Below, one piece after another: positions 1 to 26,502 of a stretch of DNA of 28,060 nucleotides (position 1 is its first letter; each line of letters begins with the position of its first letter). The position numbers and the translations under genes are program-made. This stretch comes from an uncultured Lentisphaerales bacterium (GTDB lineage: Bacteria > Verrucomicrobiota > Kiritimatiellia > RFP12 > UBA3636), in assembly GCA_964451695.1 (NCBI GenBank), contig CAYVJM010000001.1:1-28060 (forward strand), in the 5' to 3' direction. The notes beneath the pieces are model-generated. The model worked only from the letters and a program-made list of their open reading frames with translations. It had not been told where the DNA came from and did no database searches.

Positions 1-2
1 GC

Positions 3-869: not shown

Positions 870-886
870 CAACGGGATTCCGACGC

Positions 887-3796: not shown

Positions 3797-3818
3797 TTTC
3801 GGAGGCGGCGGCGCGACT

Positions 3819-6800: not shown

Positions 6801-6950
6801 GAGACGGTCTGGGATGCGTTTGGCGAGGGCAATCGCGTGATGCACGAGCGCACGGAGCTTCCGTTGTGGAATTCCGGGCTGCTGTTTCTGCTGGTGGCGG
6901 GGCTGCTGACCGCCGAATGGCTGGTGCGCAAGCGCTCGGGCATCGCCTGA
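3819..6950 (+). CDS. Large membrane protein with vWA, Ig-like and GATase-like domains (1043 aa)
   Basis: Four to five N-terminal hydrophobic helices; MIDAS VVLLDDSAS...ATD...LVTDG; VLLVDARPRWEFRYLRN; FDAIILGD; GFGQGKVLMLNTDQTWRLR...FWGQVLRW; C-terminal TM helix LLFLLVAGLLTAEWLVRKR. Confidence 0.8.
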   Translation: MDQNIARTDILPPTVPTLALWGMALTGLAVWIVAHRLVARRAGFPARTRLAILAPVGTAASWLVMQLMARHLFLAAPVHLLLMALLGGGGVEAVSLLYARESSRLPRLRGTALVACRIAALLAILFMLLQPVKVGEKTRTIRRRVVVLLDDSASMQFVDRHWTLVERLDVATALGLLKASGPDLKGFAGDVSEAVERFAVLRQLGAAPGAEAGAAGDAAATAKTVRDMLVRRTDAMEALAAAVPAQEHVELHDNLGRVAQFIRDNVIPGLERLAASETEKDRASLVAGCADALAQIAQIAPSLEPAGAIAAFGALDAPAREAVLAASDTTRAAIAARLLREKGARPEPLLDHLRARYDLDIYRFGSMAQYASGLEDAKPEDAADEAAAARLQAFRSATDVTAALENALKEIPSEELAGFLLVTDGRHNGDAGVDAVARRLGSSGMPVSSIVIGGSQPPLDVALADVRSPDSVFLGDKVRISGALTATGASGRETKIVLMLGDEAIDEQRVYIENNDFAKEFRFTHLPAEKGVLRYTVAVEAIADEAFPDNNRWSVDVSVTDDRTNVLLVDARPRWEFRYLRNLFYGRDKSVHLQEYLIHPDLVEGAPADRLPPASAARRFGDSESGDYPAGRDAWRKFDAIILGDLDSTELPDSVVEDIRYCVEERGALLVVIAGPEAMPHRVRSATLREMLPVVFTPFDGDRRTPPEAEFYFRLTPAGRGHPAMMQSSSSYENESIWGDLPVMRWRLPVDGVKPGAEVLAYAVPADAEDVSAAQLAVREIEEDPEAAVRRLAELREMQARNALVVARGFGQGKVLMLNTDQTWRLRYRVGDTRHHRFWGQVLRWGAGEKLRAGNTFVRLGTDKLRYKPTEPVKVYARVSDARYNAMNGLKPTVELASEGRVVKTMALTWREDSNGFYDGLLDPIPDPGLYTIAFSCEPARRALGGEYPENLQTRFVVVTADKPAEFVAVTASRDVPEKLATMTGGQAVGPSGVETVWDAFGEGNRVMHERTELPLWNSGLLFLLVAGLLTAEWLVRKRSGIA

Positions 6951-6974
6951 GGCGTGGCGGAAGGGGAAAGTGAC

Positions 6975-9900: not shown

Positions 9901-10238
9901 CCGCCGAGGCCCAGAAGGCGGCGGAGCAGATGAAGAGTCTGGCGGAGCAGTTGGCGCAGCAGGCCGGGCTTCCGCAGCCCGGGCCGCCTGGACAGCCGCC
10001 GCCGCCGGGGAAGCCGGGCGAGCCGTCTCCGGATGCTCAGGAAGGAAAGCCCTCTGATAGTCCCCAGGCCAAGGGCGAGCAGGGAGAAGGGAGCGCGCTG
10101 GACATCGCGACTGACTGGTTCAAGACGCGGGGCGAGATGTCCGAGGAGGCGCTGGACGCCGCGCTGGAGTCGGTTCCGGCCGAGTACAGGGAGCTGGTAA
10201 AGGCGTACTTCACCGAGCTCTCGAAGGAGGCGAAATGA
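6975..10238 (+). CDS. DUF4175-like membrane-anchored coiled-coil protein with Gln/Pro-rich tail (about 1087 aa)
   Basis: ATG at 6975 follows a purine-rich RBS, so it is preferred to the GTG at 6954. Has N-terminal TM pairs, IERNHPELEERLSTVVEL, an Ig-like region (PxYT...PERP), a long E/A/K/Q helical region and the terminal VPAEYRELVKAYFTEL. The family name is an inference. Confidence 0.7.
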   Translation: MKIGMRKTGQADASAVSFDALPADIAAKLRQTARRIQAIIWMRGLLAVVAALAVSILAIMAVDAMVTIYASGVRWALWGCGVAAVAATAFRMLVRPLSKPFTPARLAALIERNHPELEERLSTVVELLSEPGTVAEGSSQLLEVLTVDAVRDVMHVSPRREFTARTVKPKLVAAAIALGVLALLFAIWPKSMGRLVLRAVLPSAQVDNLYAENLAVTPGDAFVLKGQPLAFELAIAGGHPQRAFLRTQYSGRVGEVVERMRQTSSEKGEGEEVRYFQHFIPEVAESFRYRVACGSALTRFYAIEAVPIPAYTNLAISCAYPDYTGVGVRENPVGEMAVEAVAGSRITIGIEPERPLTTALVLADGEHLGVLGEDGRVTWTFELGEATAGLWSVRLNDEHGFTNAPAFHPVRTVKDTPPEVELVEPDRLALTLPPHGTLPIAFIAKDDFGIKSAELRAGAGREPIAPVRTVAIAQESPGVWRGADAIELGKLQTDASGRARVQIVVGDGLPELLGGPQQAFSAVIEITIDKAAQSLGAQLLQEQYEKIAAAADAVADALEVARREAKAALDEIDRQADEPAVRRLGASQAAIVKAETLIRDALTAAEDGPFADLLPEMRRLLETRVAPAHSQADVAMLSNPSERRRETVELLAILDGALEAAKKLAEAIDERKEQIEEATEMTDLADRQESLAEEAKQAEDEKPMTSEEMEAWRKEQEALKQEFEQKAQDPAAPEPLEAARKQTEELAGKIDDLKKEQEQLRDTTAKLDDPESRAEAEAELAKQTPEMPADTAPEARAEALQEDIAKRADALKDQVSEMADDFKSPGEAFEDLTKPVSEPLDGASESMDKASQEAQEAGDKLDVAPPQEGSPEAKPDLKGAGEKMDDAAENMETASEALDKAGQAMDELAGKLDQMAKEAAEAAKAAMEAAMEAAKEAQGEPQQGEPQQGEPQQGEPQPPQPGAPQPPQPGAMQKAAAEAQKAAEQMKSLAEQLAQQAGLPQPGPPGQPPPPGKPGEPSPDAQEGKPSDSPQAKGEQGEGSALDIATDWFKTRGEMSEEALDAALESVPAEYRELVKAYFTELSKEAK
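9786..9887 (+). repeat. Coding tandem repeats: 4 x 15 bp (QGEPQ) followed by about 2 x 24 bp (QPPQPGAP)
   Basis: cagggagaacctcaa / cagggtgaaccgcaa / cagggcgaaccgcaa / cagggcgaaccccag (9786-9845); cagccgccgcagccgggcgcg at 9843 and at 9867. Confidence 0.95.
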
Positions 10239-11293
10239 GACCGACGAGAGGGTGGGGAAGTCGTTTTGCGGCGTGCGCGCTGGCGTTGTTCGCGATGGGG
10301 ACCCGAGGTCAGGACGCGTCGTTCGACACGGAGGTCGACAAGTCGATCGACGCGGGCCTCGCGTATCTGGCGGGCGTGCAGCGGCCAGACGGTTCCTTCC
10401 CCGGCGAGCACGGACAGGGCGGGGCGATCTCGGCGCTGGCCGGCATGGCGTTTCTGGCCAAGGGCTATGTGCCCGGCGAGGACGCCTACGGAGTGTGCCT
10501 CGACAAGTCGGTCGATTACATCCTAGGCGTCGCCGACGCGAACGGATTCTTCGGCGCGAAGCAGGAGGGCAACGGCAAGATGTACGCGCACAGCATCTGC
10601 ACGCTCTTCCTCTCCGAAGTCTCGGGCATGGTGGACGCCGAGCGGCAGAAGCGCCTCGATGCGCTGCTGCCCAAGGCGGTGAAGATCCTTCTCGACGCGC
10701 AGAACATCAAGAAGGGCGAGCGAGACACGGGCGGCTGGCGATATCAACGGACCTCCAACGACAGCGACATGTCCTGCTCAGGCTGGGCGCTGATGGCGTT
10801 GCGCTCGTGCCGGCTCAACGGCGGGCGCGTGCCGTCTGACGCGATCGAGCGCGCGGTGGCCTACGTCAAGCGCCACCACGACCCCGCCCAGGGCACCTTC
10901 GTCTACCAGAAGGGGGGCGATTCCTACGCGGTGACACTCACGGGCGCGGGGATCCTCTGCCTGGAGCTGTGCGGGCGGCACAACGATCCGGATACGTTGC
11001 GGGCGGCGCGCTACCTGATGCGCGTCTATCGCGAACTCGAGAACCAGGATCGCGCCTTCTACGGCATGTACTACACGGCGCAGGGGCTTTTCCAGATTGG
11101 CGGCGAGGGCTGGAAGGTGTTTTCGAGTTGGATGTATCGCACGTGGATCCCGAAGCAGGGTAGCGATGGCGGCTGGGGGAGCGACCGGGAGACGAGCCGT
11201 CCCTACTGCACCTCGCTCATGCTGCTGGCCTTCACCGTCCCCTACCGCCAACTCCCGATCTACCAGCGCGACGAGACCGTGGACGAAGAGTAG
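10235..11293 (+). CDS. Prenyltransferase/squalene oxidase repeat protein (single alpha/alpha barrel) with probable signal peptide (352 aa)
   Basis: ATGA overlap with the upstream gene. QW-like repeats QRPDGSF, QN...GGWRY and QGSDGGW; SDMSCSGWALMALRS; C-terminal YRQLPIYQR; N-terminal RxxRxxxxR followed by a hydrophobic stretch. Confidence 0.8.
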   Translation: MRPTRGWGSRFAACALALFAMGTRGQDASFDTEVDKSIDAGLAYLAGVQRPDGSFPGEHGQGGAISALAGMAFLAKGYVPGEDAYGVCLDKSVDYILGVADANGFFGAKQEGNGKMYAHSICTLFLSEVSGMVDAERQKRLDALLPKAVKILLDAQNIKKGERDTGGWRYQRTSNDSDMSCSGWALMALRSCRLNGGRVPSDAIERAVAYVKRHHDPAQGTFVYQKGGDSYAVTLTGAGILCLELCGRHNDPDTLRAARYLMRVYRELENQDRAFYGMYYTAQGLFQIGGEGWKVFSSWMYRTWIPKQGSDGGWGSDRETSRPYCTSLMLLAFTVPYRQLPIYQRDETVDEE

Positions 11294-16606: not shown

Positions 16607-16635
16607 TTGTCTTCCGGTTGGCAGTTTGCTAGAAT
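16607..16635 (+). promoter_or_regulatory. Putative sigma70 promoter for the gspF/pseudopilin operon
   Basis: TTGTCT (16607-16612)-N17-TAGAAT (16630-16635) with an extended -10 TGC. Confidence 0.7.
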
Positions 16636-16743: not shown

Positions 16744-18012
16744 ATGCAGAAGTTCAACTATGTGGCGCTGGATGCGCAGGGCAAGGAGCAGCGGGGCGTG
16801 GTCGAGGCGAAGGACCAGAGCCAGGCGATCGCGGCGCTGCGGCAGCACAACTTGGTGCCGCAGACCGTTTCGCCGGTCGCCGGCGGGGGCAAGGCGAAGT
16901 CCAAGTCCATGGGCGCCATGGAGATCAACATCAAGATGCCGGCCTTTCTCCGCGGGCGGGTGAAGCCCAAGGACCTGATGGTGCTGACGCGCCAGCTCGC
17001 GACGCTGGTCGATTCCGGCCTGCCGCTCATCCGGGGTCTGCGCATCCTGACGAAGCAGACGAAGAACGCGCAGCTCAAGGATGCGCTCCAGGGAATGGGC
17101 ACGGCCGTCGAGGGCGGCGCGACGTTCTCCGAGGCGCTGGCGCAGTATCCGAAGATCTTCGACCACCTCTACGTGAACATGGCCAAGGCGGGCGAGGCGG
17201 GCGGCGTGCTCGAGCAGTCGCTGTCGCGTCTGGCGGAGTTTCTGGAAAAGGCCGAGAAGATCAAGAACAAGGTCAAGAGCGCGATGACGTACCCGACCGT
17301 CGTGCTCATCGTGGCCCTGGGCATCACGGGCTTCCTGATGGCCGCGGTCATTCCGAAATTCGAAAAGGTCTTCACCGACCTCCTCGGCGAGGGCAAGCAG
17401 ATGCCGCCGCTCACGAAGTTCGTCATGAACCTGAGCAGCACGGTGACGGAGCGGGGGACGGTGATTCCGATCGCCGTGGGCCTGGCCCTGATCTTCGTCG
17501 GGACGAAGCTCTGGTACAAGACGGCCACGGGCCGCCTCGTCCTCGACCGCCTGAAGCTCTACATCCCCGGCGTGGGGCCCCTGATCCTGAAGTCCTCGAT
17601 CGGTCGCTCCACGCGCACGCTGGGCACGCTCATGCAGTCGGGCGTGCCCGTCCTCCAGGCGCTGGACATCGTGCGCGACACGTCGGGCAACGCCGTGATC
17701 GCCAACGCCTACCAGGCCATCCACGAGAGCGTCAAGGAGGGCGAGAGCATGACGCCGCCGATGGAGCGCGCGAAGGTGTTCCCGGCCATGGTGGTCAGCA
17801 TGGTGGACGTCGGCGAGGAGACGGGCGCGCTGCCCAACATGCTCGGACGCATCGCCAACACGTACGACGACGAGGTGGACAACGCCGTCGACGCGATGAC
17901 CTCGATCATCGAGCCGGTCATGATCGTGTTCCTCGCCGTCGTCGTCGGCACGATCGTCATCGCGATGTTCATGCCCCTCACCACGATCATCAGCGGCATG
18001 AGCGGCAACTAG
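16744..18012 (+). CDS. Type II secretion F / type IV pilus PilC inner-membrane platform protein
   Basis: MQKFNYVALDAQGK, TRQLATLVDSGLPL, FSEALAQYPKIFDHLYVNMAKAGEAGGVL, KVKSAMTYP, SGVPVLQAL, VGEETGAL, IEPVMIVFLA. RBS GGAGAGG. Confidence 0.95.
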   Translation: MQKFNYVALDAQGKEQRGVVEAKDQSQAIAALRQHNLVPQTVSPVAGGGKAKSKSMGAMEINIKMPAFLRGRVKPKDLMVLTRQLATLVDSGLPLIRGLRILTKQTKNAQLKDALQGMGTAVEGGATFSEALAQYPKIFDHLYVNMAKAGEAGGVLEQSLSRLAEFLEKAEKIKNKVKSAMTYPTVVLIVALGITGFLMAAVIPKFEKVFTDLLGEGKQMPPLTKFVMNLSSTVTERGTVIPIAVGLALIFVGTKLWYKTATGRLVLDRLKLYIPGVGPLILKSSIGRSTRTLGTLMQSGVPVLQALDIVRDTSGNAVIANAYQAIHESVKEGESMTPPMERAKVFPAMVVSMVDVGEETGALPNMLGRIANTYDDEVDNAVDAMTSIIEPVMIVFLAVVVGTIVIAMFMPLTTIISGMSGN

Positions 18013-18040
18013 CCGCGCGCCGCGGGAAAGGATCAAGCGC

Positions 18041-18877
18041 ATGAAAGGGAAATCCAACCGCCGCGGAGGCTTCACGCTCATCGAGATCATGGTCGTGATC
18101 CTCGTCATCATCCTGCTCGCGGGCATGGTCTTCAAGCTCATGGGCGTCGTTGGCGCCAAGAACGAGGAGGCCAACACCAAGGCCGTCCTCCAGAAGCTGG
18201 CCAACGCCCTCGAGGAGTACCGCGCCATCTACGGCAAGTACCCCCCCGTCTACAACTACCCCGGCCTTGGGCAGCCCATCCGCTACGAGTACGCCAACGC
18301 CAAGTACCTCGAGGCGGAGGTCGGCCCGGAGTTCGCCCAGACGCTCAAGAACGCATCCAAGGACAAGGACATCTGGGGCGAGGGCGGGCGGCTCTACACC
18401 TTCGGCCTGCTATCCTACTTCGTCCCCCGCTACAAGGGCCATGCGGATCGCTCTCCGGCCATCTTCGTCGGCGGCGAGCCGGACGACCCCAAAACCGCCT
18501 CGGACGAAAGCGACACGTACAACAAGGACCGGACCATCAACCAGTGGGAGACCCACAACGTCAGGCGCTCCCGCGAGCGCATGAGCCAGTTCGATCTCCA
18601 GGAGAATATCGATTCCGCCCGCAAGATCCTGACCCACCTCGACGGTGCGCTCAACGCGGACGGCAGCGTGTCGAGCTACGGCATCATCGGGGGCGGCTGG
18701 ATCGGTTGCATGTACAATGACATTCCGTACCACAACGACCACCTCTATGTCTTGGACGGCTGGAAGCGCGAGCCGCGCTACCAGTCCAACCCGCCGCACG
18801 ACACCTACAAGCTTTGGTCCGTCGGTCCCGACGGCGTCAGCGGCACCTCGGACGACATCGTCCTGACAAGCGAATAG
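18041..18877 (+). CDS. GspG-like pseudopilin 1 with large central insertion (278 aa)
   Basis: Class III signal RRGG|FTLIE; LANALEEYRAIYGKYP; LDGWKREPRY; C-terminal YKLWSVGPDGVSGTSDDI. Confidence 0.85.
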   Translation: MKGKSNRRGGFTLIEIMVVILVIILLAGMVFKLMGVVGAKNEEANTKAVLQKLANALEEYRAIYGKYPPVYNYPGLGQPIRYEYANAKYLEAEVGPEFAQTLKNASKDKDIWGEGGRLYTFGLLSYFVPRYKGHADRSPAIFVGGEPDDPKTASDESDTYNKDRTINQWETHNVRRSRERMSQFDLQENIDSARKILTHLDGALNADGSVSSYGIIGGGWIGCMYNDIPYHNDHLYVLDGWKREPRYQSNPPHDTYKLWSVGPDGVSGTSDDIVLTSE

Positions 18878-18890
18878 GAGCGCGCCGCCC

Positions 18891-19631
18891 ATGAATCCCG
18901 TCATCTCATCGCCCCGCAGGGGCTTCACGCTGATCGAGTTGCTCGTCTCCCTCGCCGTCATCGGCATTTTGGCGAGCCTCTTCTACCCCGCGCTCAACAA
19001 AATCCGCCAGAAGGCCTGGGACACGTCCGCCCACGAACTCTGCGTCCAGGCCGCGACGGCCTGGAACCAGCTCCTGCTCACCCATCGGCGCTTCCCCTCG
19101 CGCGACCTCATCGAGTGGGCCGCCGACCTCGACAAGGACGGCGACGTCGAGAAGGTCGATGGCGACATGGCCTTCCCGATGATGACGGGCACGACGTGCC
19201 TCCTCAACTGGTGGAAGCCCACCCATCCGCTCCCCGAGTTCGACCTGCCCAACTACAAGAAGTGGCTCAAGACAGCCGCGCGAGGCAACAAGGAGGTCGA
19301 CTTCGACGACTGGGACCAGATTCCGGACTGGCCGAACGACCTCGTGCTCGAGCGCTCCGTCGAGCAGAAGAAATGGGGCCTTGTCGCCCCCTGGGCGAAC
19401 CGCTGGATCAAGAACGCAGCGACGCCCACGACCGAAGGGCTCCAGAACGTCGTCACGGCGACTGTCTGGGTGCTGCTCGATCTCGACGGCGACGGCAAGG
19501 TCACGCTGCCCGGTTCTCTGCCCGGCGGCGTCGGGCTCGATTCCGAGGGCAAGTCGCTGATCATTCCCAAGTCCGTCGTCGCCTGGGTTTTCACCGGTTC
19601 CAAGCGGGACAAGGTCGTTACAAGCTGGTAG
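18891..19631 (+). CDS. Prepilin-type (G-like) protein 2 with two DxDxDG loops (246 aa)
   Basis: RRG|FTLIELLVSLAVIGILASLFYPAL; DLDKDG and DLDGDG. Confidence 0.85.
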   Translation: MNPVISSPRRGFTLIELLVSLAVIGILASLFYPALNKIRQKAWDTSAHELCVQAATAWNQLLLTHRRFPSRDLIEWAADLDKDGDVEKVDGDMAFPMMTGTTCLLNWWKPTHPLPEFDLPNYKKWLKTAARGNKEVDFDDWDQIPDWPNDLVLERSVEQKKWGLVAPWANRWIKNAATPTTEGLQNVVTATVWVLLDLDGDGKVTLPGSLPGGVGLDSEGKSLIIPKSVVAWVFTGSKRDKVVTSW

Positions 19632-19666
19632 CGTGCGCCGGCGCCGCCGGTCAGGAGGTTTTCGCC

Positions 19667-20371
19667 ATGGACAAGCCATTTTTCAAGCGAACCGCGGGCT
19701 TCACCCTCGTCGAACTGCTCATTGTCGTGGGCATTCTCGCCGTGCTGCTCAGCCTGCTCACCCCGGCGATTCTCAAGAACATCGCCGTCGTCAGCGAACG
19801 ACAGCACGACAACGAGCGCAAGCTGCTCGAGGCCGCGCTGATGGAGTACTGGCACGACCAGGGCGAATGGCCGATTCCGAAGAAGGGCAAGGACGGCTAC
19901 AAAAAGCCCGATGCCAACTCCCGCTTGTCGTTCCGCTACGACAACTACGTCGTCTTCAACACCCTGCTCCGCAAGTCCCTGCTCAACGAGCGCAGCGGGA
20001 AGGACTACATCGACCCCGCCGTCCATACGACGACCCGCGAGAAGTGCGACGAAAAGGACTATCCCAACTTTCTCGTCGCCCGGCTCGTGGACGCCATCGA
20101 GGGGGACCACGACGTCAGCGCCCGCAAGGAGCTGACGCTCGTGTACTGGAAGAAGCTCATCGAGTGCCCGGAATGCCCGACCGACGACCTCCGCCGCTTC
20201 CAGGGCATCGGGGCCTCGAAATGCAGCAACCCGAACTGCAAATTTCTGAAGTCCAAGGGCTATGCCTATGCGTTTTCGCCCTCCCAGAAGCGACGCTTTG
20301 TGAAGGGGCTTCTGCCCTACAGGGTCACGATCGATCTGCTCAACAACCGCGCCATCGTGACCGACGACTAG
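19667..20371 (+). CDS. Prepilin-type (G-like) protein 3 with Cys4 knuckle (234 aa)
   Basis: AGGAGGT RBS before the ATG at 19667; KRTAG|FTLVELLIVVGILAVLLSLLTP; YWHDQGEWP; CPEC-x15-CSNPNC. Confidence 0.85.
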   Translation: MDKPFFKRTAGFTLVELLIVVGILAVLLSLLTPAILKNIAVVSERQHDNERKLLEAALMEYWHDQGEWPIPKKGKDGYKKPDANSRLSFRYDNYVVFNTLLRKSLLNERSGKDYIDPAVHTTTREKCDEKDYPNFLVARLVDAIEGDHDVSARKELTLVYWKKLIECPECPTDDLRRFQGIGASKCSNPNCKFLKSKGYAYAFSPSQKRRFVKGLLPYRVTIDLLNNRAIVTDD

Positions 20372-20418
20372 CCGGGGCGCCGGGCCTCGACACCAATCCC
20401 GATCCAAGGAGAATCTGA

Positions 20419-21294
20419 ATGACCAGACAGGACACGCACACGCGAGAAACGCGCCGTCCGCAGGGCTTCACCCTGCTGGAGCTCATCGCCGTGATGGGCA
20501 TCATCGTGGCGATGTCCGCCATCGTCGTGGGCGGCTACAAAGGGATGATGCGCGCCATCGCCCAGCGCACCGGCGTGGACGCCCTCGCCAAGGCCATCAC
20601 GCTCTGCCGTCAATACGCCACGATCGACGGCAAGGACACGTACTTCTGGATCACCGGCTTCGACACGTATGTCATCTGCCGCAAGGCCGGCCAGGTCGAC
20701 GCCAGCACCGAGCGCGTCAGGAACCGCCCGCTCGAAGACTACGAGCGCAGCGCCTGCGGCTACCTGCCCAAGTCGGGCTCCTTCTCCGCCTACTGGATCA
20801 CCGATTCCTACGCCGATCTCGGTTCGGCGGAGGACTATACGCGCAACATGGACGAAGACGCCAAGGAGGGGGCCGTCGAGCAGATGAAGGAGAAGACCTA
20901 CAACGGCGGTCTCGTCTTCGACTTCACGGCCGGGGAGGTCGCCAGAATCCGCTATCCCGCCTGGTTTGTCGCCTCCCAGGGCTATTGGATCATCGGCCTC
21001 ATGGGGCCGGATCGGGAGGACACCCCGCCTGGCTTCAAGCCCAGTAGCGAATACGGCTGGATGGTCGGGCCCGAATACCAGCTCCCCAAGGGCTATGTGT
21101 TCGACCCCGGCCATTACCAATACGACAAAACCAGCGGCGAATTCAAGGAGGGCGAGCGCTTCTTCTTCCGCCCCGACGGCACGCCGGACGAGAATACGAC
21201 GATCACCCTCAACGAGGTCGGCTCCGAGAAGAAGCCCTTCGTCACCATCCGCGGAGACGGGACGATCTCGTGGGACTATCAGGACGGCAAATGA
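20419..21294 (+). CDS. GspH/FimT-like minor pseudopilin (291 aa)
   Basis: AAGGAG RBS; RRPQG|FTLLE; ITLCRQYATIDGK; C-terminal YQLPKG...FFFRPDG...VTIRGDGTI. Confidence 0.75.
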   Translation: MTRQDTHTRETRRPQGFTLLELIAVMGIIVAMSAIVVGGYKGMMRAIAQRTGVDALAKAITLCRQYATIDGKDTYFWITGFDTYVICRKAGQVDASTERVRNRPLEDYERSACGYLPKSGSFSAYWITDSYADLGSAEDYTRNMDEDAKEGAVEQMKEKTYNGGLVFDFTAGEVARIRYPAWFVASQGYWIIGLMGPDREDTPPGFKPSSEYGWMVGPEYQLPKGYVFDPGHYQYDKTSGEFKEGERFFFRPDGTPDENTTITLNEVGSEKKPFVTIRGDGTISWDYQDGK

Positions 21295-21314
21295 AGGTCA
21301 GGGGAGGCCACACC

Positions 21315-21920
21315 ATGCGCGGCATATTCAACAGGACGGGATTCTCCCTCATCGAGGTCAACATGGCGATCCTCATCGCCGCCGGGGGGCTGATGTCGCT
21401 CTTCTCGCTCCTCCCGGGCGGGCTTCGCCACAGCGTCATGTCCCAGGAGGATCTCTACCAGTCCACTTTCGCCAGTTCGCTGCTCGACACCATTTCCGCC
21501 AACGTCAAGAAGATCGACGATGTCGGCGATTGGAACAACGCGAAGACCTTCTGGGAATACGCCGTCGGCAAGCAGGGCGACCAGTGCGTACAGATCAAAG
21601 GCATCCCGGCTGCCCTGAAAAATGCCACCGCGGCGAAGAGCGACGGCGCCATTTCCGACGCCACGAAGCAGCTCCTGACGGATGAAAATGGAAGCGTCTG
21701 GTTCGCCTGCCAAGAAGAAGACGAGGTCGACGACGACCCGCCCTCCGTCACCGTGCTGCTCCCGACCCAGTATTTCATCCGCCTCAAGCAGGAGGCTGGC
21801 ATCGGGGGCGCACCGGCCCGCTACACGGTTTCCGTGACGTCGACCCAGATGCCGTCCCCGGCGGCCTACCACCGCAACGCCATCTACACGATGGACTACT
21901 ACTTCTGCGGCCAGCCATGA
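21315..21920 (+). CDS. GspI/PilV-like minor pseudopilin (resembles Verru_Chthon cassette B type; 201 aa)
   Basis: GGAGG RBS before the ATG at 21315 (alternative start: ATGA overlap at 21291); NRTG|FSLIEVNMAILIAAGGLMSLFSLLPGGL. Confidence 0.72.
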   Translation: MRGIFNRTGFSLIEVNMAILIAAGGLMSLFSLLPGGLRHSVMSQEDLYQSTFASSLLDTISANVKKIDDVGDWNNAKTFWEYAVGKQGDQCVQIKGIPAALKNATAAKSDGAISDATKQLLTDENGSVWFACQEEDEVDDDPPSVTVLLPTQYFIRLKQEAGIGGAPARYTVSVTSTQMPSPAAYHRNAIYTMDYYFCGQP

Positions 21921-22648
21921 GCCGCCGCGCCGTTTCGCCGCAAGGAACCCCGAACATGATCGAAAGACAACGTAGACACGGAGCCGCCGGCTTCTCGCTC
22001 ATCGAGGTGATGGTCGCCACCGGCGTCCTGCTTGTCGTGGTGCTCATGGTAGGCGCCGTTTTCCGCCAGGCCTCCTCGTCCTGGGACGGCGGCTACGCCC
22101 GCGCCGAAGGCGGCATGATCGTGCGCGGCGTCCTCGGCGCCATCCAGCGCGACCTCTCCCAGGCCGTCGATGGACGTCGGTTCCTCGAAGATTGGGATGT
22201 TCCCGTCAAGGTGAGCGGCGGCGAGGTGCAATTCGTCCGCCCCTACTTCGACCAGGAGACGAAGGAGGAGCAGTACCACCTCGTCACCTACACGGCGGGA
22301 GCGGGCAGCGTCAAGCGCAAGTGGCAGCTCCTCAAGTGGAACAACACCGACAAGACCTGGTCGGCCGGCAAGGGGGGCGACGACGATGTCGAGATCTACA
22401 AGGACGGCAAGGGCATGCGCCCCGGCTATGGCTTCCGGGCGCGCTTCGAGATCGCGGGGGACGAAGTGACGGATCCCGGCGTCGGCCTCGGTCCCGACGG
22501 CAAGCCGAAGAAGGGCGTCTTCTGGACCGTGCCCACCGTGTCCCTGCGCGTCGACCTCGTCCGCACCGGAAGCTTCAGCGGGCTGCGCGTGCGCTCGCTC
22601 GGCCGCGACGGCAAGAAGGACACGGACGACGACATCCTGGTTCGTTGA
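21917..22648 (+). CDS. GspJ/PilW-like minor pseudopilin with GspG-like C-terminal motif
   Basis: ATGA overlap (alternative ATG at 21956 with AAGGA); AAG|FSLIEVMVATGVLLVVVLMVGAVF; IQRDLSQAV; ends with RSLGRDGKKDTDDDI. Confidence 0.75.
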   Translation: MSRRAVSPQGTPNMIERQRRHGAAGFSLIEVMVATGVLLVVVLMVGAVFRQASSSWDGGYARAEGGMIVRGVLGAIQRDLSQAVDGRRFLEDWDVPVKVSGGEVQFVRPYFDQETKEEQYHLVTYTAGAGSVKRKWQLLKWNNTDKTWSAGKGGDDDVEIYKDGKGMRPGYGFRARFEIAGDEVTDPGVGLGPDGKPKKGVFWTVPTVSLRVDLVRTGSFSGLRVRSLGRDGKKDTDDDILVR

Positions 22649-22665
22649 TTCGCGAGGAACGCATC

Positions 22666-23115
22666 ATGAAAGACCATTTCCAGAGAAACGGATTCAGCCT
22701 GATCGAGCTGCTCGCGGTCACCGCGATCATCGCCATCCTCGCCGGCATGATCGGGGTCGCCGCTTTCAACGCCCGGCAGAAGGCCTACAACACGATCGCG
22801 CGCACCGAGGTCCAGCAGCTCGCGACCGCCCTCAAGTCCTGGTGGGTCGCCAAGGGGGAATGGCCCAAGGGCTTCCCGGCGGGCTCCGACACCGGCATCA
22901 GCGCCGACGTCATCCGCGAGTCCGGCCTGCGCGGCGACGTCGACGGCAACGTCTACCTCCAGATCCCCGACGACCGGTTCGAAGACGGGCTCTTCCTCGA
23001 CCCCTGGGGCCACCCGTATTTCGTCGAGATCGACGAGGTCACCGAGACCGAGGATGTCGAAACCTATCAGATCACCGTCAGCTTCGTGAACTCCGACAAG
23101 TACTATTTCGAGTAA
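22666..23115 (+). CDS. Short GspG-like pseudopilin 4 (149 aa)
   Basis: GAGGA RBS; QRNG|FSLIELLAVTAIIAILAGM; QQLATALKSWWVAKGEWP; FLDPWGHPY. Confidence 0.85.
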   Translation: MKDHFQRNGFSLIELLAVTAIIAILAGMIGVAAFNARQKAYNTIARTEVQQLATALKSWWVAKGEWPKGFPAGSDTGISADVIRESGLRGDVDGNVYLQIPDDRFEDGLFLDPWGHPYFVEIDEVTETEDVETYQITVSFVNSDKYYFE

Positions 23116-23125
23116 CGCCCGCGAT

Positions 23126-23191
23126 GAGGAACCACGAATGGACACGAATGGACGCCAATTCGTGTCTATTCGCGTCCATTCGTGGTTCTTC
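23126..23191. repeat. Intergenic hairpin built from decamer units
   Basis: gaacc-acgaatggac-acgaatggac-[gccaattcgt]-gtctattcgc-gtccattcgt-ggttc: a stem of about 25-28 bp with one mismatch and G-T pairs. Confidence 0.92.
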
Positions 23192-23222
23192 CTTCCCGCG
23201 CACCATTTGAGGTTCGTCCACT

Positions 23223-26222
23223 ATGAACAAACAGCAACAGCAACAACACCAGCGGCAATCCGGATCGGCCCTCGTGGTCGTCCTCGGCCTGCTGGCCGTG
23301 ATCATGCTCATGGCCGTGGCCTTCTCCATCTACATGCGCACGGAGCGCGCCGGCACGACGAACCTCCGCCACGCCCTCGTCGCCAAGCAGATGATGCAGT
23401 CCGCCATCGCCCGGACGATGCAGACCATCGACGAATCCTTTGAAGATCCGAAGAACACCTGGGCGGCGCCCAACTGGGACGAACCCTATCTGACCTCCCA
23501 CGAGCCGACCTCCGCCGACACGCGCCTCTACCAGTCCGCTCCCTGCGCCAACGACGCCGAGCGCACCAAGAACGCCCGCGTCCTGACGCGCGAAATCATG
23601 ATGCACCTGACTCCGGGGCAGCTCGCTCTCGCGGGCAATGCCAAGATCGACTGGGCCAGCATCAACTCCGGCGTATCCGCCGATTCGAGCAAGGACCCCA
23701 TCATGGGGCGCTACGCCTTCGTCGCCTTCGACGTCTCCGGCCTGCACGACATGAACAAGGCCGGCGCCGACGATCCCAAGAACGTCGCCAAGACGTACAA
23801 GGCCCGCGCCACCGACTTCGCCACGAACGCCGTCAACTACCAGGTCGGGGAGTCCCTCTTTTTCAACGCGACGTCCGGCACGTTCAAGCCCGACTATGAC
23901 AAGTTCGTCGAGGCGCGCGCCGAGCAGCCGTTCATGTCGATGGCGGACCTCTGGCGGAGGAGCGGGATTCCCAATGGCCCGGAGTCCTACAAGTTCGACA
24001 TCGACAAGGAGATCGTGCCCGACATCTTCACCACCTATTCGATGTCGCTCGAAGGCCTCGCCCCCGACGGCGCCATGAAGCTCCCCCTCGCGACCCTCGA
24101 GAACGATGCGCAGAAGACGGCCTACGCCAAGCTCGCGGCGCCGGTCTTCAAGAAGATGTTCGACGAGAACGGCGGCGAACGGGAGTTCCGGTTCAAAGTC
24201 GCGCCGAAGTTCACCCGATCGCAACTCGCCACCCAGGCCCTCGTCGACTACCTCGACGAGGACGACGTCCCCTGCGGCGGCATCGACAACGGGCGGAACG
24301 GCAGCGGCGGCCACCTGAATTTCCCCTGCACCGAGCCCGTCCCCCTCATTACCCAGGCCATGGCGAATTTCTCCATCGGCGCGCCGAAGAAATATGAGGA
24401 TCCCAGCGATCCGCTCAAGTCCTATCAGGAGTGGGAGGTCTCGTTCTTCGCCGTCTGCGAAGCGCAGTTTCTCAACGACAAGGTTCCCGCGAACCTCGCC
24501 TCGAAGAAGTATCAGTTGAAGATGGAGCTGGAGTTCATCGACCTGTACGATCTCCTGCCCGTCCTCTGGGGCCCTGAATGGCAGACGGGCACCGCCGGCT
24601 GGAAGGTCGATTTCATCGATGCGCCTTTCATGGCCAACGTCCAGACGATCTCCAGCCCATCCAAGAGTTTGACGGCGGGAAGCTACACCCAGCGCACGCT
24701 ATTCGCGAAGACACCCGACGCCGGGGTGAAGGTCCTGCGGGTCAGGGCCTACAACAAGGCCAGCGGTTCCCGCAAGTTCTCCCAATGCGAGGAGCAACTT
24801 GCCAAGGACTCCGTCCGAACCGAGATTCGCATCAAGGCCCAGGTCCTCAGCGGCTCCACGGTCGTCCAGCAGGTCCCGGCGCCGATTCTCGAAGCCAGGG
24901 CCGCCGAAAGCGGCTACCGCCTCAAGCTCGCTCCGGGGCTCTACCGGAACCCCGCGGAAGCGGGCAGGGCGGTCGAGAAGTTCGAGTTCGGCTGGGCGAT
25001 GTGCCTCGATCCGCGCTTCGCCTACAACACGGAGACGATGGGCAGGAACGGACTGACCGGCAGCGTCGGCCCCCGGTTCTGGGTGAACAACGACCACGCC
25101 CATGACGACCTCCTGGCCGGCGGGGACGCGGTGATGAAGCAGATCGCCGGCATGCTCACCGACGCCGAGCTGGCGGGCGCCCTTCAAATCAACGCGCTTG
25201 GAAACTGGTTGATCAAGGAGACCGTGTTCGCCGATTCCGCGCCGTCCTCCGCCAAGAACATCGCGGACATGTGGACGAACAAGTTGAAGATCTACCCGGA
25301 CGCATACCACCTCTCCAAGAAGGGGGGCAAGACGTTCCTCGAGACGGACATGAACGACCTGGCGACGATGCTGCAATCGCGCATCACGAACCTCCCGATG
25401 GTGTCGCCCGGCGAACTCGGCAACTTGCTGATCGGGCCCTGGGAGACGCTCTCGCTCTTCGCCTGCTTCCCCCCCGATTCCGGGGTCGAGCCCACCTTCC
25501 ACCGCGCGCTGGACTACTTCTGCATGGGCGAGGCGCGATATCCGACGATGGCCCAGATCGCCTCTGGGGCGACGACGGACCGACACCTCGCCGCCCTGCA
25601 GTCGGGCCGCATCAACTTGAATCCGCAGCGCCTCGTCGTCTCGAAGAGCGACATCTCCCCGCGCGGCGAGCAGATCCTCGATGGCGACAACTACCCCGAG
25701 TACAACAGCGATCCCCTCGTCTGCGTGCTGACCGGCGCTTGCATCAACGAAAAGCAGGCGACCCAGTTGGAGGCGGACGACGCCGAGAAGATCGCCGAGG
25801 CGTTCTACGCGGAGGCGAAGCAGCTCGAGAAGAAGGGCTCCAATCGCGGCGCGCTGATGATCTCGCGCGTCTCCGAACTCGGTCAGGGCAACGCGGCGGG
25901 CGACGCCAATCCCGTGCTCCAGGTGCTCATGGACGCGGCCACTCCTCTGAAAATCACCTGCGACGCCCACCGCGAAGCGCTCATCGCCAACTCGGTCAAC
26001 GCCCTCACCACCCGCGGGCAGAGCTTCCTCGTCATCATCCGCGCCGAGGCGTTCTCACCGCGCTACGGCTCCGACAGCCCCGACAACGGCACCACGCTCT
26101 CGACCACCTACGCCGTTGTCGAACTCTGGCGTGATCCCGAGCCCATGCGGGATCCCCAGGGCGCCATTATGAAGGGCTCCCCCACCCATCCCTGGGTGAT
26201 CCGCTCCATCCGCTGGTTCTAG
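23223..26222 (+). CDS. Giant GspK/PilX-like minor pseudopilin (resembles Verru_Chthon cassette A type; 999 aa)
   Basis: SG|SALVVVLGLLAVIMLMAVAF with no Glu+5, as in GspK/PilX; RYAFVAFDVSGLHDMN; PFMSMADL; ALVDYLDEDD; GRINLN; ISRVSEL; TTRGQSFLVIIRAE. Confidence 0.72.
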   Translation: MNKQQQQQHQRQSGSALVVVLGLLAVIMLMAVAFSIYMRTERAGTTNLRHALVAKQMMQSAIARTMQTIDESFEDPKNTWAAPNWDEPYLTSHEPTSADTRLYQSAPCANDAERTKNARVLTREIMMHLTPGQLALAGNAKIDWASINSGVSADSSKDPIMGRYAFVAFDVSGLHDMNKAGADDPKNVAKTYKARATDFATNAVNYQVGESLFFNATSGTFKPDYDKFVEARAEQPFMSMADLWRRSGIPNGPESYKFDIDKEIVPDIFTTYSMSLEGLAPDGAMKLPLATLENDAQKTAYAKLAAPVFKKMFDENGGEREFRFKVAPKFTRSQLATQALVDYLDEDDVPCGGIDNGRNGSGGHLNFPCTEPVPLITQAMANFSIGAPKKYEDPSDPLKSYQEWEVSFFAVCEAQFLNDKVPANLASKKYQLKMELEFIDLYDLLPVLWGPEWQTGTAGWKVDFIDAPFMANVQTISSPSKSLTAGSYTQRTLFAKTPDAGVKVLRVRAYNKASGSRKFSQCEEQLAKDSVRTEIRIKAQVLSGSTVVQQVPAPILEARAAESGYRLKLAPGLYRNPAEAGRAVEKFEFGWAMCLDPRFAYNTETMGRNGLTGSVGPRFWVNNDHAHDDLLAGGDAVMKQIAGMLTDAELAGALQINALGNWLIKETVFADSAPSSAKNIADMWTNKLKIYPDAYHLSKKGGKTFLETDMNDLATMLQSRITNLPMVSPGELGNLLIGPWETLSLFACFPPDSGVEPTFHRALDYFCMGEARYPTMAQIASGATTDRHLAALQSGRINLNPQRLVVSKSDISPRGEQILDGDNYPEYNSDPLVCVLTGACINEKQATQLEADDAEKIAEAFYAEAKQLEKKGSNRGALMISRVSELGQGNAAGDANPVLQVLMDAATPLKITCDAHREALIANSVNALTTRGQSFLVIIRAEAFSPRYGSDSPDNGTTLSTTYAVVELWRDPEPMRDPQGAIMKGSPTHPWVIRSIRWF

Positions 26223-26230
26223 CGGGGGGT

Positions 26231-26315
26231 GAGACTGGAGACCGGAAACTGGAAACTGGAAACTTGAAACTGGATCCGCCCCCTTGGCGGGACAGGTCTC
26301 CCAGTCCTGAGTCCT
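26231..26315. repeat. Heptamer array (GARACTG x6) followed by a partial inverted copy
   Basis: gagactg gagaccg gaaactg gaaactg gaaactt gaaactg (26231-26272). ggtctcccagtc (26295-26306) is complementary to gactggagacc (26233-26243) with one bulge, and is overlapped and followed by cagtcct gagtcct. Confidence 0.88.
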
Positions 26316-26391
26316 TTCCGTAGATGCGACGAAGCACGTCTGCCGCGAAGCGAGGTAGGGCGCAGCCGTCCCGGCAATCCGCTGTGCAAGA

Positions 26392-26502
26392 CCTGCGCCC
26401 AGGAGCCTGGGCGCAGGAGGCGGGTAAAAGCTTCGCAGGGGTTCACGAGGCGCTTTCCGGCAGGTTTTACCCTCTCCCCGCAGGCAGGCCCCTGCCTGCG
26501 GG
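26392..26502. repeat. Cluster of inverted repeats upstream of corA
   Basis: cctgcgcccagg-ag-cctgggcgcagg (26392-26417); gggtaaaa...ttttaccc (26422-26472); cccgcaggcagg-cc-cctgcctgcggg (26477-26502). Confidence 0.9.

What the first reader, a model, noticed from the sequence alone, without database searches (positions are those of the whole stretch)
16744..26222. Stand-alone F-G-G-G-H-I-J-G-K pseudopilus cassette with enlarged subunits and no motor or secretin
Seen: gspF/pilC followed by seven G|F[TS]L[ILV]E prepilins and one E5-less K/X-like giant, in nearly canonical T2SS order but with four G-like genes. The block runs from its own promoter to a repeat-rich end and has no ATPase, secretin, L/M/C or peptidase gene. 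Six of the seven prepilins are 201-291 aa, versus roughly 130-200 aa for most classical G/H/I subunits. Established: T2SS operons run FGHIJK with a single major G; Verru_Chthon cassettes encode A-D minor-pilin sets of unknown function. Inference: an interchangeable filament-and-tip kit with a dedicated platform protein that plugs into a shared ATPase and secretin. It may be a PVC-specific type IV filament variant for substrate-specific secretion, adhesion or polymer capture. This is the best candidate for an undescribed system in the window.
Basis: partly seen in the sequence, partly recalled or inferred. Interest (0 to 1): 0.72.

Follow-up and report, generated by a model that had tools for sequence, protein, structure and literature searches.

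The report
Pilus platform and pilin operon
This nine-gene block encodes the membrane platform, seven enlarged pilin subunits and a 999-residue cap protein of a type IV pilus-like machine; its motor and outer-membrane parts lie elsewhere in the genome, so it is an uncharacterised variant of a known machine, not a new kind of system.

Summary
Window 16744-26222 carries gspF/pilC, seven G|F(T/S)L(I/V/L)E prepilins (149-291 aa) and a 999-aa E5-less GspK-like protein. The 28-kb contig has no ATPase, secretin or peptidase.

The reading as an interchangeable kit using a shared ATPase and secretin is only partly supported.
- The organism is a wastewater Kiritimatiellia MAG.
- The platform gene is the single-copy PilC of the phylum (128/151 good genomes).
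- Outside this order it sits directly after pilB-pilT-pilB2.
- One relative (G101) has pilB-pilT-pilB2-pilC-four pilins-giant K as one run.
- Another (G046) has six pilins-giant K-Amuc_1102/1101(PilM)/1100/1099/1098(secretin)-like genes as one run.

So the cassette is the platform and filament part of one scattered type IVa pilus-like machine. The MAG holds the other parts on contigs C32/C397/C299, C128/C191 and C290.

Separate gene sets lie on other contigs: a G-H-I-J-K set and F45, which form one E-F-G-H-I-J-K operon in relatives, and gspD, gspE and F_C2, which form a D-E-F operon in relatives.

Structure models show the giant has a GspK fold (Z 12.7) with a ~600-residue insertion. Pilin 1 has a GspG core with a ~135-residue insertion.

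Verdict: a new variant of a known kind. The scan met this module before on other Kiritimatiellia DNA.

The parts
16607..16635 (+). sigma-70-like promoter candidate in the 163-nt divergent gap before pilC
   Evidence: Consensus scan, 9 of 12 matches with TG extension. Pattern match only, not shown to function.
16744..18012 (+). F1: PilC/GspF platform protein, 422 aa
   Evidence: Two T2SSF domains, 219.8 bits. PilC and GspF profiles score equally, 387-391 bits, all below the equivalog cut-offs. Single-copy orthologue in 38/41 relatives and 128/151 phylum genomes. The cassette F1 sequences form one clade (95/92) whose sister is the PilC that follows pilB-pilT-pilB2 in G064 (89/90).
18041..18877 (+). 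P1: GspG-like prepilin with a ~135-residue insertion, 278 aa; candidate major subunit
   Evidence: GspG N-terminus 51 bits and T2SSG C-terminus at residues 229-272. Model pLDDT 86.4. Best solved match is EpsG 4lw9_A, Z 8.4, rmsd 1.5 A over 73 residues, 27% identity. Sixty-one orthologue hits of 250-377 aa in the 92 fetched loci, five of which are re-fetches of the same region.
18891..19631 (+). P2: prepilin, 246 aa
   Evidence: N_methyl 35 bits; only the N-terminal helix matches G/H/ComG profiles. Syntenic orthologues.
19667..20371 (+). P3: prepilin, 234 aa
   Evidence: N_methyl 27.7 bits; GspG N-terminal match 35.6 bits. Syntenic orthologues.
20419..21294 (+). P4: GspH/ComGD-like prepilin, 291 aa
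   Evidence: ComGD 25.7 bits and GspH 24.4 bits over residues 15-97, below cut-offs. Syntenic orthologues of 246-411 aa.
21315..21920 (+). P5: PilV/GspI-like minor prepilin, 201 aa
   Evidence: PilV 34.2 bits, Verru_Chthon B 24.9 bits and XpsI 20.4 bits, all below cut-offs.
21917..22648 (+). P6: GspJ/PilW-like minor prepilin, 243 aa (start may be the Met at 21956)
   Evidence: Verru_Chthon C 22.4 bits and GspJ 16.4 bits, below cut-offs. Overlaps the P5 stop by 4 nt.
22666..23115 (+). P7: small GspG-like prepilin, 149 aa, sitting where the H-like/linker pilin of a tip set is expected
   Evidence: GspG profile 35.4 bits over 113 residues; carries DPWGHPY. It is the best conserved pilin of the block, 78% identity to the same-genus genome.
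23223..26222 (+). K: 999-aa GspK/PilX-fold cap protein without Glu5, with a ~600-residue inserted region
   Evidence: GspK profile matches only residues 12-88, 36 bits. No Pfam family. Model pLDDT 82.9, pTM 0.83. Best solved matches are GspK 3ci0_K (Z 12.7, 248 of 280 residues), XcpX 5vtm_X (Z 11.3) and ComZ (Z 6.3); the next is Z 4.3. AFDB relatives include 'Verru_Chthon cassette protein A' and a 'PilX' entry.
26231..26502 (.). operon end: five 7-nt repeats (26231-26265) and two perfect 12-nt palindromes (26392-26417, 26477-26502)
   Evidence: Repeat search. No T-tract terminator was found on the + strand here. Role as terminator is inferred.

Best explanation
The block is the platform-plus-filament operon of a type IVa pilus-like machine common to Verrucomicrobiota/Kiritimatiellia. 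In this order its genes are scattered over at least four loci.

Parts shown by homology and linkage:
- F1 is the PilC partner of a pilB-pilT-pilB2 ATPase trio. In this MAG the trio lies on C32 (end), C397 and C299.
- The pilin/K set belongs with an Amuc_1102/1101(PilM)/1100/1099/1098(secretin)-like operon, here on C128 and C191.
- The single prepilin peptidase is on C290.

Inferred mechanism:
- The peptidase cleaves the seven prepilins at G|F.
- P5 (I-like), P6 (J-like), P7 (linker) and the Glu5-less GspK-fold giant K form the priming/tip complex.
- P1, a GspG-core pilin with a large insertion, and possibly P2-P4, polymerise beneath the tip on PilC, driven by the PilB-type ATPases.
- The fibre leaves through the Amuc_1098-type secretin, and PilT can retract it.
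- K's ~600-residue insertion, exposed at the tip, is the likely binding (adhesin or polymer-capture) module.

Whether the fibre is a long pilus or a short secretion piston is not resolved.
For: Orthology of the platform gene:
- There is one F1 orthologue per genome in 128/151 phylum genomes that are at least 90% complete.
- It lies directly after Ea-PilT-Eb (or Ea-Eb) in closed or good genomes of other orders and classes (L169-L174; L181-L190).
- Cross-referencing, F1 is adjacent to the trio in about 19 of 23 same-class genomes outside this order and in 0 of 15 within it.
- In the F tree the cassette F1 clade is sister to a trio-adjacent PilC. The paralogue clades F67, F45 and F_C2 are separate, each with 100% support.

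Physical linkage of the modules in relatives:
- G101: Ea-PilT-Eb-F1-four prepilins-842-aa K in one run.
- G046: six prepilins-743-aa K-Amuc_1102/1101/1100/1099/1098-like genes on one strand.
- G177: F1-seven prepilins-K, then 13 kb further a prepilin-Amuc_1102-like-PilM run.
- G090: trio-F1, then at least six prepilins.

Elimination:
- In the closed 6.1-Mb chromosome G041 the two other F genes each have an adjacent E.
- Only F1, the trio and the PilM-secretin locus lack partners.
- In G034 (98% complete) the only extra E groups with the E genes that are adjacent to F45.

Co-distribution:
- F1 is present in 128/151 genomes and the Amuc_1101-like PilM in 127/151.
- At least 16 genomes from about 6 families lack both.

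Component identities:
- PilT-family ATPase, TIGR01420, 455 bits against a 319-bit cut-off.
- PilM, TIGR01175, 179 against 133.
- Amuc_1099 family, 86 against 50.
- Amuc_1098 family, full-length match of 419 bits.
- All parts are present in this MAG.

Folds:
- K matches GspK and XcpX (Z 12.7 and 11.3).
- P1 matches EpsG (Z 8.4).

Literature:
- The Amuc_1098-1102 cluster is treated as the type IV pilus cluster of Akkermansia (PMC5332112, PMC10688800).
Against: - No direct evidence of a fibre, of expression (no RNA run holds the sequence), or of which pilin is the major one.
- The pilins look T2SS-like (GspG core and motifs, GspK fold) rather than like classical type IVa pilins.
- F1 is below every PilC and GspF equivalog cut-off.
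- PilN/O/P were not identified; Amuc_1100- and Amuc_1099-like proteins sit in their place.
- The tip-complex model was not supported or refuted by the one complex prediction, which gave no answer.
- The MAG is 75% complete, so its gene inventory is partial.
- Related genomes are not independent, so the co-distribution counts overstate the support.
Confidence: 0.82

Rival explanations
1. The cassette is the pseudopilus module of the genome's gspD (C52)-gspE (C8)-gspF (C2) type II secretion system, which has no pilin genes of its own nearby.
For: - D_C52 passes the GspD equivalog cut-off (364.7 against 351) and E_C8 scores best as GspE.
- D-E-F_C2 operons in G033 and G032 have no pilins next to them.
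- In the same-genus genome G002 the gspE orthologue lies 10 kb downstream of the cassette.
- In L069 an F1 orthologue lies 6.4 kb upstream of gspD-gspE.
- P1 and K have T2SS-type folds.
Against: - F1 (and in most cases K next to it) is kept in families f5, f6, f11 and f12, where no D_C52 or E_C8 orthologue was found.
- The D-E operon carries its own F.
- F1 is orthologous to the PilC of the PilT-containing operon.
- The pilin/K block is contiguous with the trio in G101 and with the Amuc-type secretin operon in G046.
- The genes between F1 and gspD in L069 are housekeeping genes.
Confidence: 0.07
2. One reading: an interchangeable filament-and-tip kit with its own platform that plugs into whichever ATPase and secretin the cell shares among several type IV filament systems.
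For: - The genome has at least 5 GspF-type platforms, at least 8 T2SSE loci and 3 secretins.
- One relative of the same class, the closed genome G064, has about six K-like giants at separate loci.
- Some same-order genomes have a second K-like gene.
- Verru_Chthon cassettes are described as multi-copy (recalled from the NCBIfam/TIGRFAM family descriptions, not checked here).
Against: - There is one F1 and one K per genome in this family.
- Synteny is conserved with identities of 57-84% down to 25-60% across the order, the pattern of vertical inheritance.
- The partners are specific, as shown by linkage in G101, G046 and G090.
Confidence: 0.06
3. Same parts list, but the machine works as a secretion piston (a T2SS-like short pseudopilus that pushes substrates through the Amuc_1098-type secretin) rather than as an extended, retractile surface pilus.
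For: - P1 has the GspG core and the DxWG...SxGPDG...DDI C-terminus, conserved in 36 orthologues.
- K has the GspK fold, and its helical domain (about 794-930) weakly matches a ComEA structure (Z 4.3).
- Kiritimatiellia are exoenzyme-rich polysaccharide degraders (from my own knowledge).
Against: - A PilT-family ATPase is embedded in the motor operon across the phylum. Retraction ATPases are a hallmark of pili, not of T2SS.
- The Akkermansia homologues are associated with pili-like surface structures (PMC5332112).
- Separate T2SS-like gene sets exist in the same genome.
Confidence: 0.2

Closest known systems
Type IVa pilus machinery (PilB/PilT/PilC, PilMNOPQ, PilA, FimU-PilVWX minor pilins; e.g. 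Pseudomonas, Myxococcus)
   Same: - PilB-type and PilT-type ATPases sit in one operon with PilC in relatives.
- There is a PilM-like protein and a secretin in a second operon.
- There is a prepilin peptidase, and a minor-pilin set with an I-like, a J-like and a Glu5-less K/X-like member.
- The genes are scattered over several loci, as in Pseudomonas.
   Different: - Two PilB paralogues flank PilT.
- Amuc_1100/1099-like proteins stand where PilN/O/P would be.
- The filament subunit is GspG-like with a ~135-residue insertion.
- There are seven pilins of 149-291 aa.
- The cap protein is 999 aa.
- In this order pilC has moved from the motor operon to the head of the pilin operon.
Type II secretion pseudopilus operon gspF-G-H-I-J-K and the GspI-J-K tip complex (PDB 3CI0; XcpVWX 5VTM)
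   Same: - The gene order is F, G-like, H-like, I-like, J-like, K-like.
- K has the GspK fold (Z 12.7).
- P1 has the GspG core (Z 8.4).
- K lacks Glu5.
   Different: - No gspE, D, C, L or M lies with it.
- The motor operon contains PilT.
- There are extra G-like genes.
- The subunits are 1.5-3 times larger.
- Every sequence score is far below the equivalog cut-offs.
- The genome holds separate gene sets (F45 and G-H-I-J-K; gspD, gspE, F_C2) that form canonical E-F-G-H-I-J-K and D-E-F operons in relatives.
Akkermansia muciniphila Amuc_1098-Amuc_1102 'type IV pili' cluster
   Same: - The MAG's C128/C191 locus and the G041 and G046 loci match the Amuc_1102, 1101 (PilM), 1100, 1099 and 1098 (secretin) families in the same order.
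- Akkermansia-like closed genomes carry an F1 orthologue (about 50% identity) after two PilB-type genes.
   Different: - That cluster holds no platform or pilin genes.
- The cassette studied here supplies exactly those parts.
- No K-like giant was detected in the Akkermansia-like genome searched.
Verru_Chthon cassette proteins A-D (TIGR02600, 02598, 02599, 02596)
   Same: - It is a four-gene module of three prepilins plus a GspK-like giant of more than 1000 aa.
- K aligns over its full length with a model named 'Verru_Chthon cassette protein A' (Foldseek E 4.8e-9).
- The order P5-P6-P7-K is consistent with B-C-D-A.
   Different: - HMM scores are 18-31 bits against cut-offs of 51-332, so these are not members by sequence.
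- Here the module is single copy and fused to pilC and four further pilins.
Thermus thermophilus ComZ (PDB 6QVI), a large competence-associated minor pilin
   Same: It is a pilin fold carrying a large inserted domain, presumably at the pilus tip. It is the third-best structural match (Z 6.3).
   Different: The inserted domains are unrelated. There is no evidence here for a role in DNA uptake.

Membership tests
Type II secretion system (canonical Gsp) | GspF equivalog (TIGR02120) score above the cut-off | tested here: not met
   386.8 bits against a 424-bit cut-off. The PilC profiles score the same, 388-391 bits.
Type II secretion system (canonical Gsp) | Major pseudopilin GspG equivalog (TIGR01710) | tested here: not met
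   P1 scores 51 bits, P7 35 bits and P3 36 bits against a cut-off of 88.85. The fold of the P1 core is GspG-like (Z 8.4).
Type II secretion system (canonical Gsp) | Dedicated GspE and GspD partners, and no retraction ATPase | tested here: not met
   F1 orthologues sit in pilB-pilT-pilB2-pilC operons. The PilT family scores 455 bits against a 319-bit cut-off. GspD/GspE orthologues were not found in families that keep the cassette.
Type II secretion system (canonical Gsp) | GspC/L/M assembly platform proteins | not tested
   No search for T2SSL, T2SSM or T2SSC was run. None lies in the window.
Type IVa pilus | PilB-type extension ATPase and PilT-type retraction ATPase genetically tied to the platform protein | tested here: met
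   Ea scores 621-642 bits on the PilB profile, just under the 675-bit cut-off. PilT is above its cut-off. Both are adjacent to F1 orthologues in other orders.
Type IVa pilus | PilM plus secretin operon | tested here: met
   PilM TIGR01175 scores 179 bits against 133. The secretin domain scores 117 bits. The locus is contiguous with the pilin/K block in G046 and is present on C128/C191 of this MAG.
Type IVa pilus | PilN, PilO and PilP alignment proteins | tested here: inconclusive
   The two genes between PilM and the secretin have no Pfam hit and match only the Amuc_1100/1099 families. PilM carries a ~200-residue C-terminal extension.
Type IVa pilus | PilC equivalog | tested here: not met
   388-391 bits against 700-bit cut-offs of the Thermus- and Myxococcus-specific models. 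These models are clade-specific, so this says little.
GspK / PilX-type cap pilin | GspK sequence family (NF037980) | tested here: not met
   36.4 bits against a 130-bit cut-off, covering residues 12-88 only.
GspK / PilX-type cap pilin | GspK fold and absence of Glu5 | tested here: met
   3ci0_K gives Z 12.7 with 248 of 280 residues aligned, and 5vtm_X gives Z 11.3. Both are well above the next unrelated hit at Z 4.3. The N-terminus is SG|SALVV.
Verru_Chthon cassette (TIGR02596/02598/02599/02600) | HMM scores above cut-off for proteins A, B, C and D | tested here: not met
   A: 30.9 against 332. B: 24.9 against 51.4. C: 22.4 against 256.5. D: 18.4 against 70, and that hit is on P3.
Verru_Chthon cassette (TIGR02596/02598/02599/02600) | Architecture: three prepilins plus a GspK-like giant; fold relation to protein A | tested here: met
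   The order P5-P6-P7-K fits. The AFDB entry named 'Verru_Chthon cassette protein A' aligns to residues 1-999 at E 4.8e-9, with a low TM-score of 0.3.
Amuc_1098-1102-type pilus system | Presence and order of the five families in the partner locus | tested here: met
   In G041, NF042424, NF045709, NF038287, NF042425 and NF042912 hit in order. Only NF042425 is above its cut-off. The same order is found on own contigs C128/C191 by tblastn.

The most novel reading that the evidence does not exclude
The cassette may be one third of a distinct, phylum-wide class of type IV filament machine that is neither a classical T4aP nor a T2SS. Its features would be two PilB paralogues around PilT, Amuc_1100/1099-type proteins in place of PilNOP, a GspG-derived filament subunit carrying a large surface insertion, and a giant GspK-fold tip protein. 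The variable ~600-residue middle of that tip protein would be a lineage-specific ligand-binding module, for example for glycan or polymer capture. In this reading Amuc_1100 of Akkermansia would be part of the same machine, and its true filament subunits would be the pilins encoded next to pilC.
Probability: 0.25. Interest if true: 0.7.

Novelty: new variant of a known kind. Interest (0 to 1): 0.47.

Why it matters
- It assigns the platform and filament genes to the Amuc_1098-1102-type pilus system. The Akkermansia literature read here describes that system from its secretin/PilM cluster alone (PMC5332112, PMC10688800). This makes the composition of the fibre testable in cultured Akkermansia, Kiritimatiella or Pontiella.
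- It shows how a T2SS-looking pilin set (GspG core, GspK fold) can be driven by a PilT-containing motor, which bears on how T2SS and T4aP diverged.
- The 700-1400-residue GspK-fold tip proteins form a large family with no Pfam model. They are obvious candidates for the adhesive or substrate-binding end of the fibre in polysaccharide-degrading PVC bacteria.
- For annotation, it warns against calling such blocks 'incomplete T2SS'.

Tried and rejected
- Complex prediction of the soluble parts of P5 and P6 as an I-J-like pair gave no answer: score 0.00, chains poorly folded without alignments. It is no evidence either way. K is too long to include with partners.
- Foldseek against the PDB gave nothing usable for K, and only a 37-residue GspG match for P1. 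The exhaustive aligner was needed.
- A profile search of the K alignment against PDB sequences found nothing.
- Literature searches returned no relevant paper. They covered Kiritimatiell* with pseudopilin or type II secretion, 'Verru_Chthon cassette', and Akkermansia with PilB/PilC.
- No RNA run holds the locus, so expression could not identify the major pilin.
- I first considered gspD (C52) and gspE (C8) as the partners, because their family-level distribution seemed to track K. I rejected this when F1 (and in most cases K next to it) turned up in families lacking them, and when D-E-F_C2 operons appeared.
- I considered the C32 G-H-I-J-K set as a competitor for the trio. I rejected this because it forms E45-F45-G-H-I-J-K operons elsewhere.
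- One call with a placeholder name (36), one oversize region (74) and one bad search word (110) were slips.

Full report
**What is there.** The window is the whole 28,060-bp contig C1 of a 2.57-Mb, 75%-complete MAG. Record titles of the nearest relatives mostly read Kiritimatiellia/Kiritimatiellae, with some filed as Lentisphaerae or Verrucomicrobia. The sequence is held by wastewater and bioreactor metagenomes from eight studies.

On the + strand, nine tightly spaced genes run from 16744 to 26222:
- a 422-aa PilC/GspF with two T2SSF domains
- seven prepilins of 278, 246, 234, 291, 201, 243 and 149 aa, each with G|F(T/S)L(I/V/L)E and a hydrophobic helix
- a 999-aa protein whose N-terminus (SG|SALVVVLG...) is GspK-like and lacks Glu5

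Upstream lie divergent glycosyltransferase and pcnB genes. Downstream lies corA. No ATPase, secretin or A24 peptidase is on the contig.

**It is conserved, single copy and genuinely detached.**
- The K protein has a match in 37 of 41 related genomes and the F protein in 38 of 41. In this family there is one copy each.
- The order F-P1...P7-K is syntenic across the family and order.
- Most of 80 Kiritimatiellia loci fetched by F show the same order. An ATPase or secretin lies within 10 kb in only two of them.
- In a closed 6.1-Mb chromosome the cassette lies about 0.2 Mb from the nearest T2SSE gene and 0.35 Mb from the nearest secretin.

**The genome has many type IV filament systems.** The MAG has five GspF-type platforms plus Tad-type ones, at least eight T2SSE loci, three secretins and one prepilin peptidase. 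Sorting them gave the following.
- A PilQ-type secretin, an MshE-like ATPase, an F gene and three small pilins lie on C23.
- An E-F pair lies on C67.
- gspD (above the equivalog cut-off) and gspE lie on C52 and C8. In relatives they form a gspD-gspE-gspF operon with the C2-type F.
- A normal-sized G-H-I-J-K set lies on C32. In relatives it forms a canonical E-F-G-H-I-J-K operon with the C45-type F.
- A universal trio of PilB-like, PilT-like and PilB-like genes has no platform gene nearby in this order.

**Who the partners are.** Four lines of evidence converge.
1. *Orthology.* F1 has exactly one orthologue (44-69% identity) in 128 of 151 phylum genomes that are at least 90% complete. In closed or good genomes of other orders and classes it sits immediately after the trio, or after the two PilB-type genes in Akkermansia-like genomes. 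Cross-referencing the positions of F1 and the PilB-type Ea shows adjacency in about 19 of 23 same-class genomes outside this order and in 0 of 15 inside it. In the tree, the cassette F1 sequences form a clade whose sister is a trio-adjacent PilC, apart from all paralogue clades.
2. *Direct linkage.* G101 has Ea-PilT-Eb-F1-four prepilins-842-aa K in one run. G090 has trio-F1 followed by at least six prepilins. G046 has six prepilins-743-aa K-Amuc_1102/1101/1100/1099/1098-like genes on one strand. G177 has the cassette 13 kb upstream of the same PilM locus.
3. *Elimination.* In the closed genome the two other F genes each have an adjacent E. That leaves F1, the trio and the PilM-secretin locus as the only incomplete pieces. 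In a 98%-complete genome the only extra ATPase groups with those that accompany the C45-type F.
4. *Co-distribution.* F1 is in 128/151 genomes and the PilM-like gene in 127/151. At least 16 genomes from about six families lack both. Related genomes are not independent, so this is supporting evidence only.

The PilM-secretin locus matches the Akkermansia Amuc_1102-1098 families in order. The literature treats this cluster as that organism's type IV pilus cluster (PMC5332112, PMC10688800). This MAG has all the pieces:
- Ea on the end of C32
- PilT and the start of Eb on C397
- the rest of Eb on C299
- the Amuc-type operon on C128 and C191
- the peptidase on C290

**The proteins.**
- *K.* The model is confident (pLDDT 82.9, pTM 0.83). 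Its only strong solved relatives are GspK of the ETEC GspI-J-K complex (Z 12.7, 248 of 280 residues) and XcpX (Z 11.3), followed by the large competence pilin ComZ (Z 6.3). The next hits are at Z 4.3. The GspK core is built from the N-terminal ~190 residues and the C-terminal ~200 residues. About 600 residues in between, including beta-sandwich domains, are inserted. Predicted-structure relatives include entries named 'Verru_Chthon cassette protein A' and 'Tfp pilus assembly protein PilX'. Language-model neighbours are unannotated Verrucomicrobiota/Lentisphaerota proteins. K-like genes of 713-1042 aa occur in 29 of 41 class genomes, mostly once per genome. One closed genome has about six.
- *P1.* The model (pLDDT 86.4) superposes on the major pseudopilin EpsG at 1.5 A over 73 residues (Z 8.4). 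It carries a ~135-residue mostly helical insertion. The enlarged size and the DGWG...SAGPDG...DDI C-terminus are conserved in orthologues.
- *P4-P7.* P4 is H/ComGD-like, P5 PilV/I-like and P6 J-like. P7 is a small G-like pilin at the position of the linker subunit. All are far below family cut-offs.

**How it most likely works.**
- *Shown:* the gene content, the orthology and linkage of the three modules, and the folds of K and P1.
- *Inferred:* the single peptidase processes the seven prepilins. P5, P6, P7 and K prime assembly and cap the fibre, with K's insertion exposed. P1, perhaps with P2-P4, forms the shaft on PilC, powered by the two PilB-type ATPases. The fibre passes through the Amuc_1098-type secretin and PilT retracts it.

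Whether the fibre is a long adhesive pilus or a short secretion piston is open. I give the piston reading about 0.2. It is tempered by the PilT gene in the motor operon and by the separate T2SS-like gene sets in the same genome.

**Comparison and novelty.** It works like a type IVa pilus with T2SS-like subunits. It is not a member by score of the GspF, GspG, GspK, PilC or Verru_Chthon families. It does meet the fold test for GspK and GspG, and the genetic tests for a PilB/PilT/PilC/PilM/secretin machine.

It differs in several ways:
- a duplicated PilB
- Amuc_1100/1099-type proteins where PilNOP would be
- enlarged pilins
- a giant cap protein
- in this order, the move of pilC to the head of the pilin operon

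I found no paper describing it. The scan has noted the same module on other Kiritimatiellia DNA, and the pilB-pilT-pilB'-pilC operon elsewhere. I read those notes after reaching the reading above, and they agree with it.

**Verdict.** This is a real, conserved, uncharacterised variant of a known kind of machine. Its 'stand-alone interchangeable kit on shared motors' interpretation is replaced by 'the platform-and-filament locus of one scattered, dedicated pilus system'.

Noticed in passing
G000 contigs C45 (1185-2447) and C32 (1538-5261); relatives L136 and L087: Parts of a separate T2SS-like set lie elsewhere in this genome: F45 on C45 and normal-sized G-H-I-J-K genes on C32 (133 aa in the frame as read from an in-frame site upstream of the start; then 274, 129, 341, 362 aa). 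The GspK scores 113 bits. In relatives these form one E-F-G-H-I-J-K operon, divergently adjacent to the cassette in L087.
   Followed up: partly
G000 contigs C52, C8 and C2; relatives L146, L147 and L069: gspD (above the equivalog cut-off), gspE and a divergent gspF form a D-E-F operon in some families, with no pilin genes beside it. In this MAG and in L069, gspD follows fabZ-lpxA. It is unclear which pseudopilins serve it.
   Followed up: partly
It is followed by a single 207-aa prepilin, a candidate filament subunit for the Amuc_1098-1102 system.
   Followed up: no
G064 (closed 2.95-Mb genome, same class), loci L175-L180: About six K-like giants of 730-947 aa lie at separate loci. One is preceded by H-, I- and J-like prepilins. 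So multi-copy tip cassettes exist in some lineages, although not in this family.
   Followed up: partly
window 26231-26502: Five tandem 7-nt units (GAGACTG/GAAACTG) begin nine bases after the K stop codon. Two perfect 12-nt palindromes lie at 26392-26417 and 26477-26502. They may act as terminators or as regulatory sites before corA.
   Followed up: no
window 1-11293: The upstream genes are a BatA/vWA/PA14/CARDB membrane protein, two large proteins without Pfam hits and a prenyltransferase-like (SQHop_cyclase_C) protein. They are unrelated to the cassette.
   Followed up: no
G000 contig C32, 6067-12170: Between the G-K pilin set and the PilB-type gene lie a 931-aa protein with an ExbB/TolQ-like C-terminus, an ExbD-like gene (judged from its N-terminal sequence only; not scanned against any family library) and a 943-aa protein with no family match.
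   Followed up: no
I did not test its conservation.
   Followed up: no
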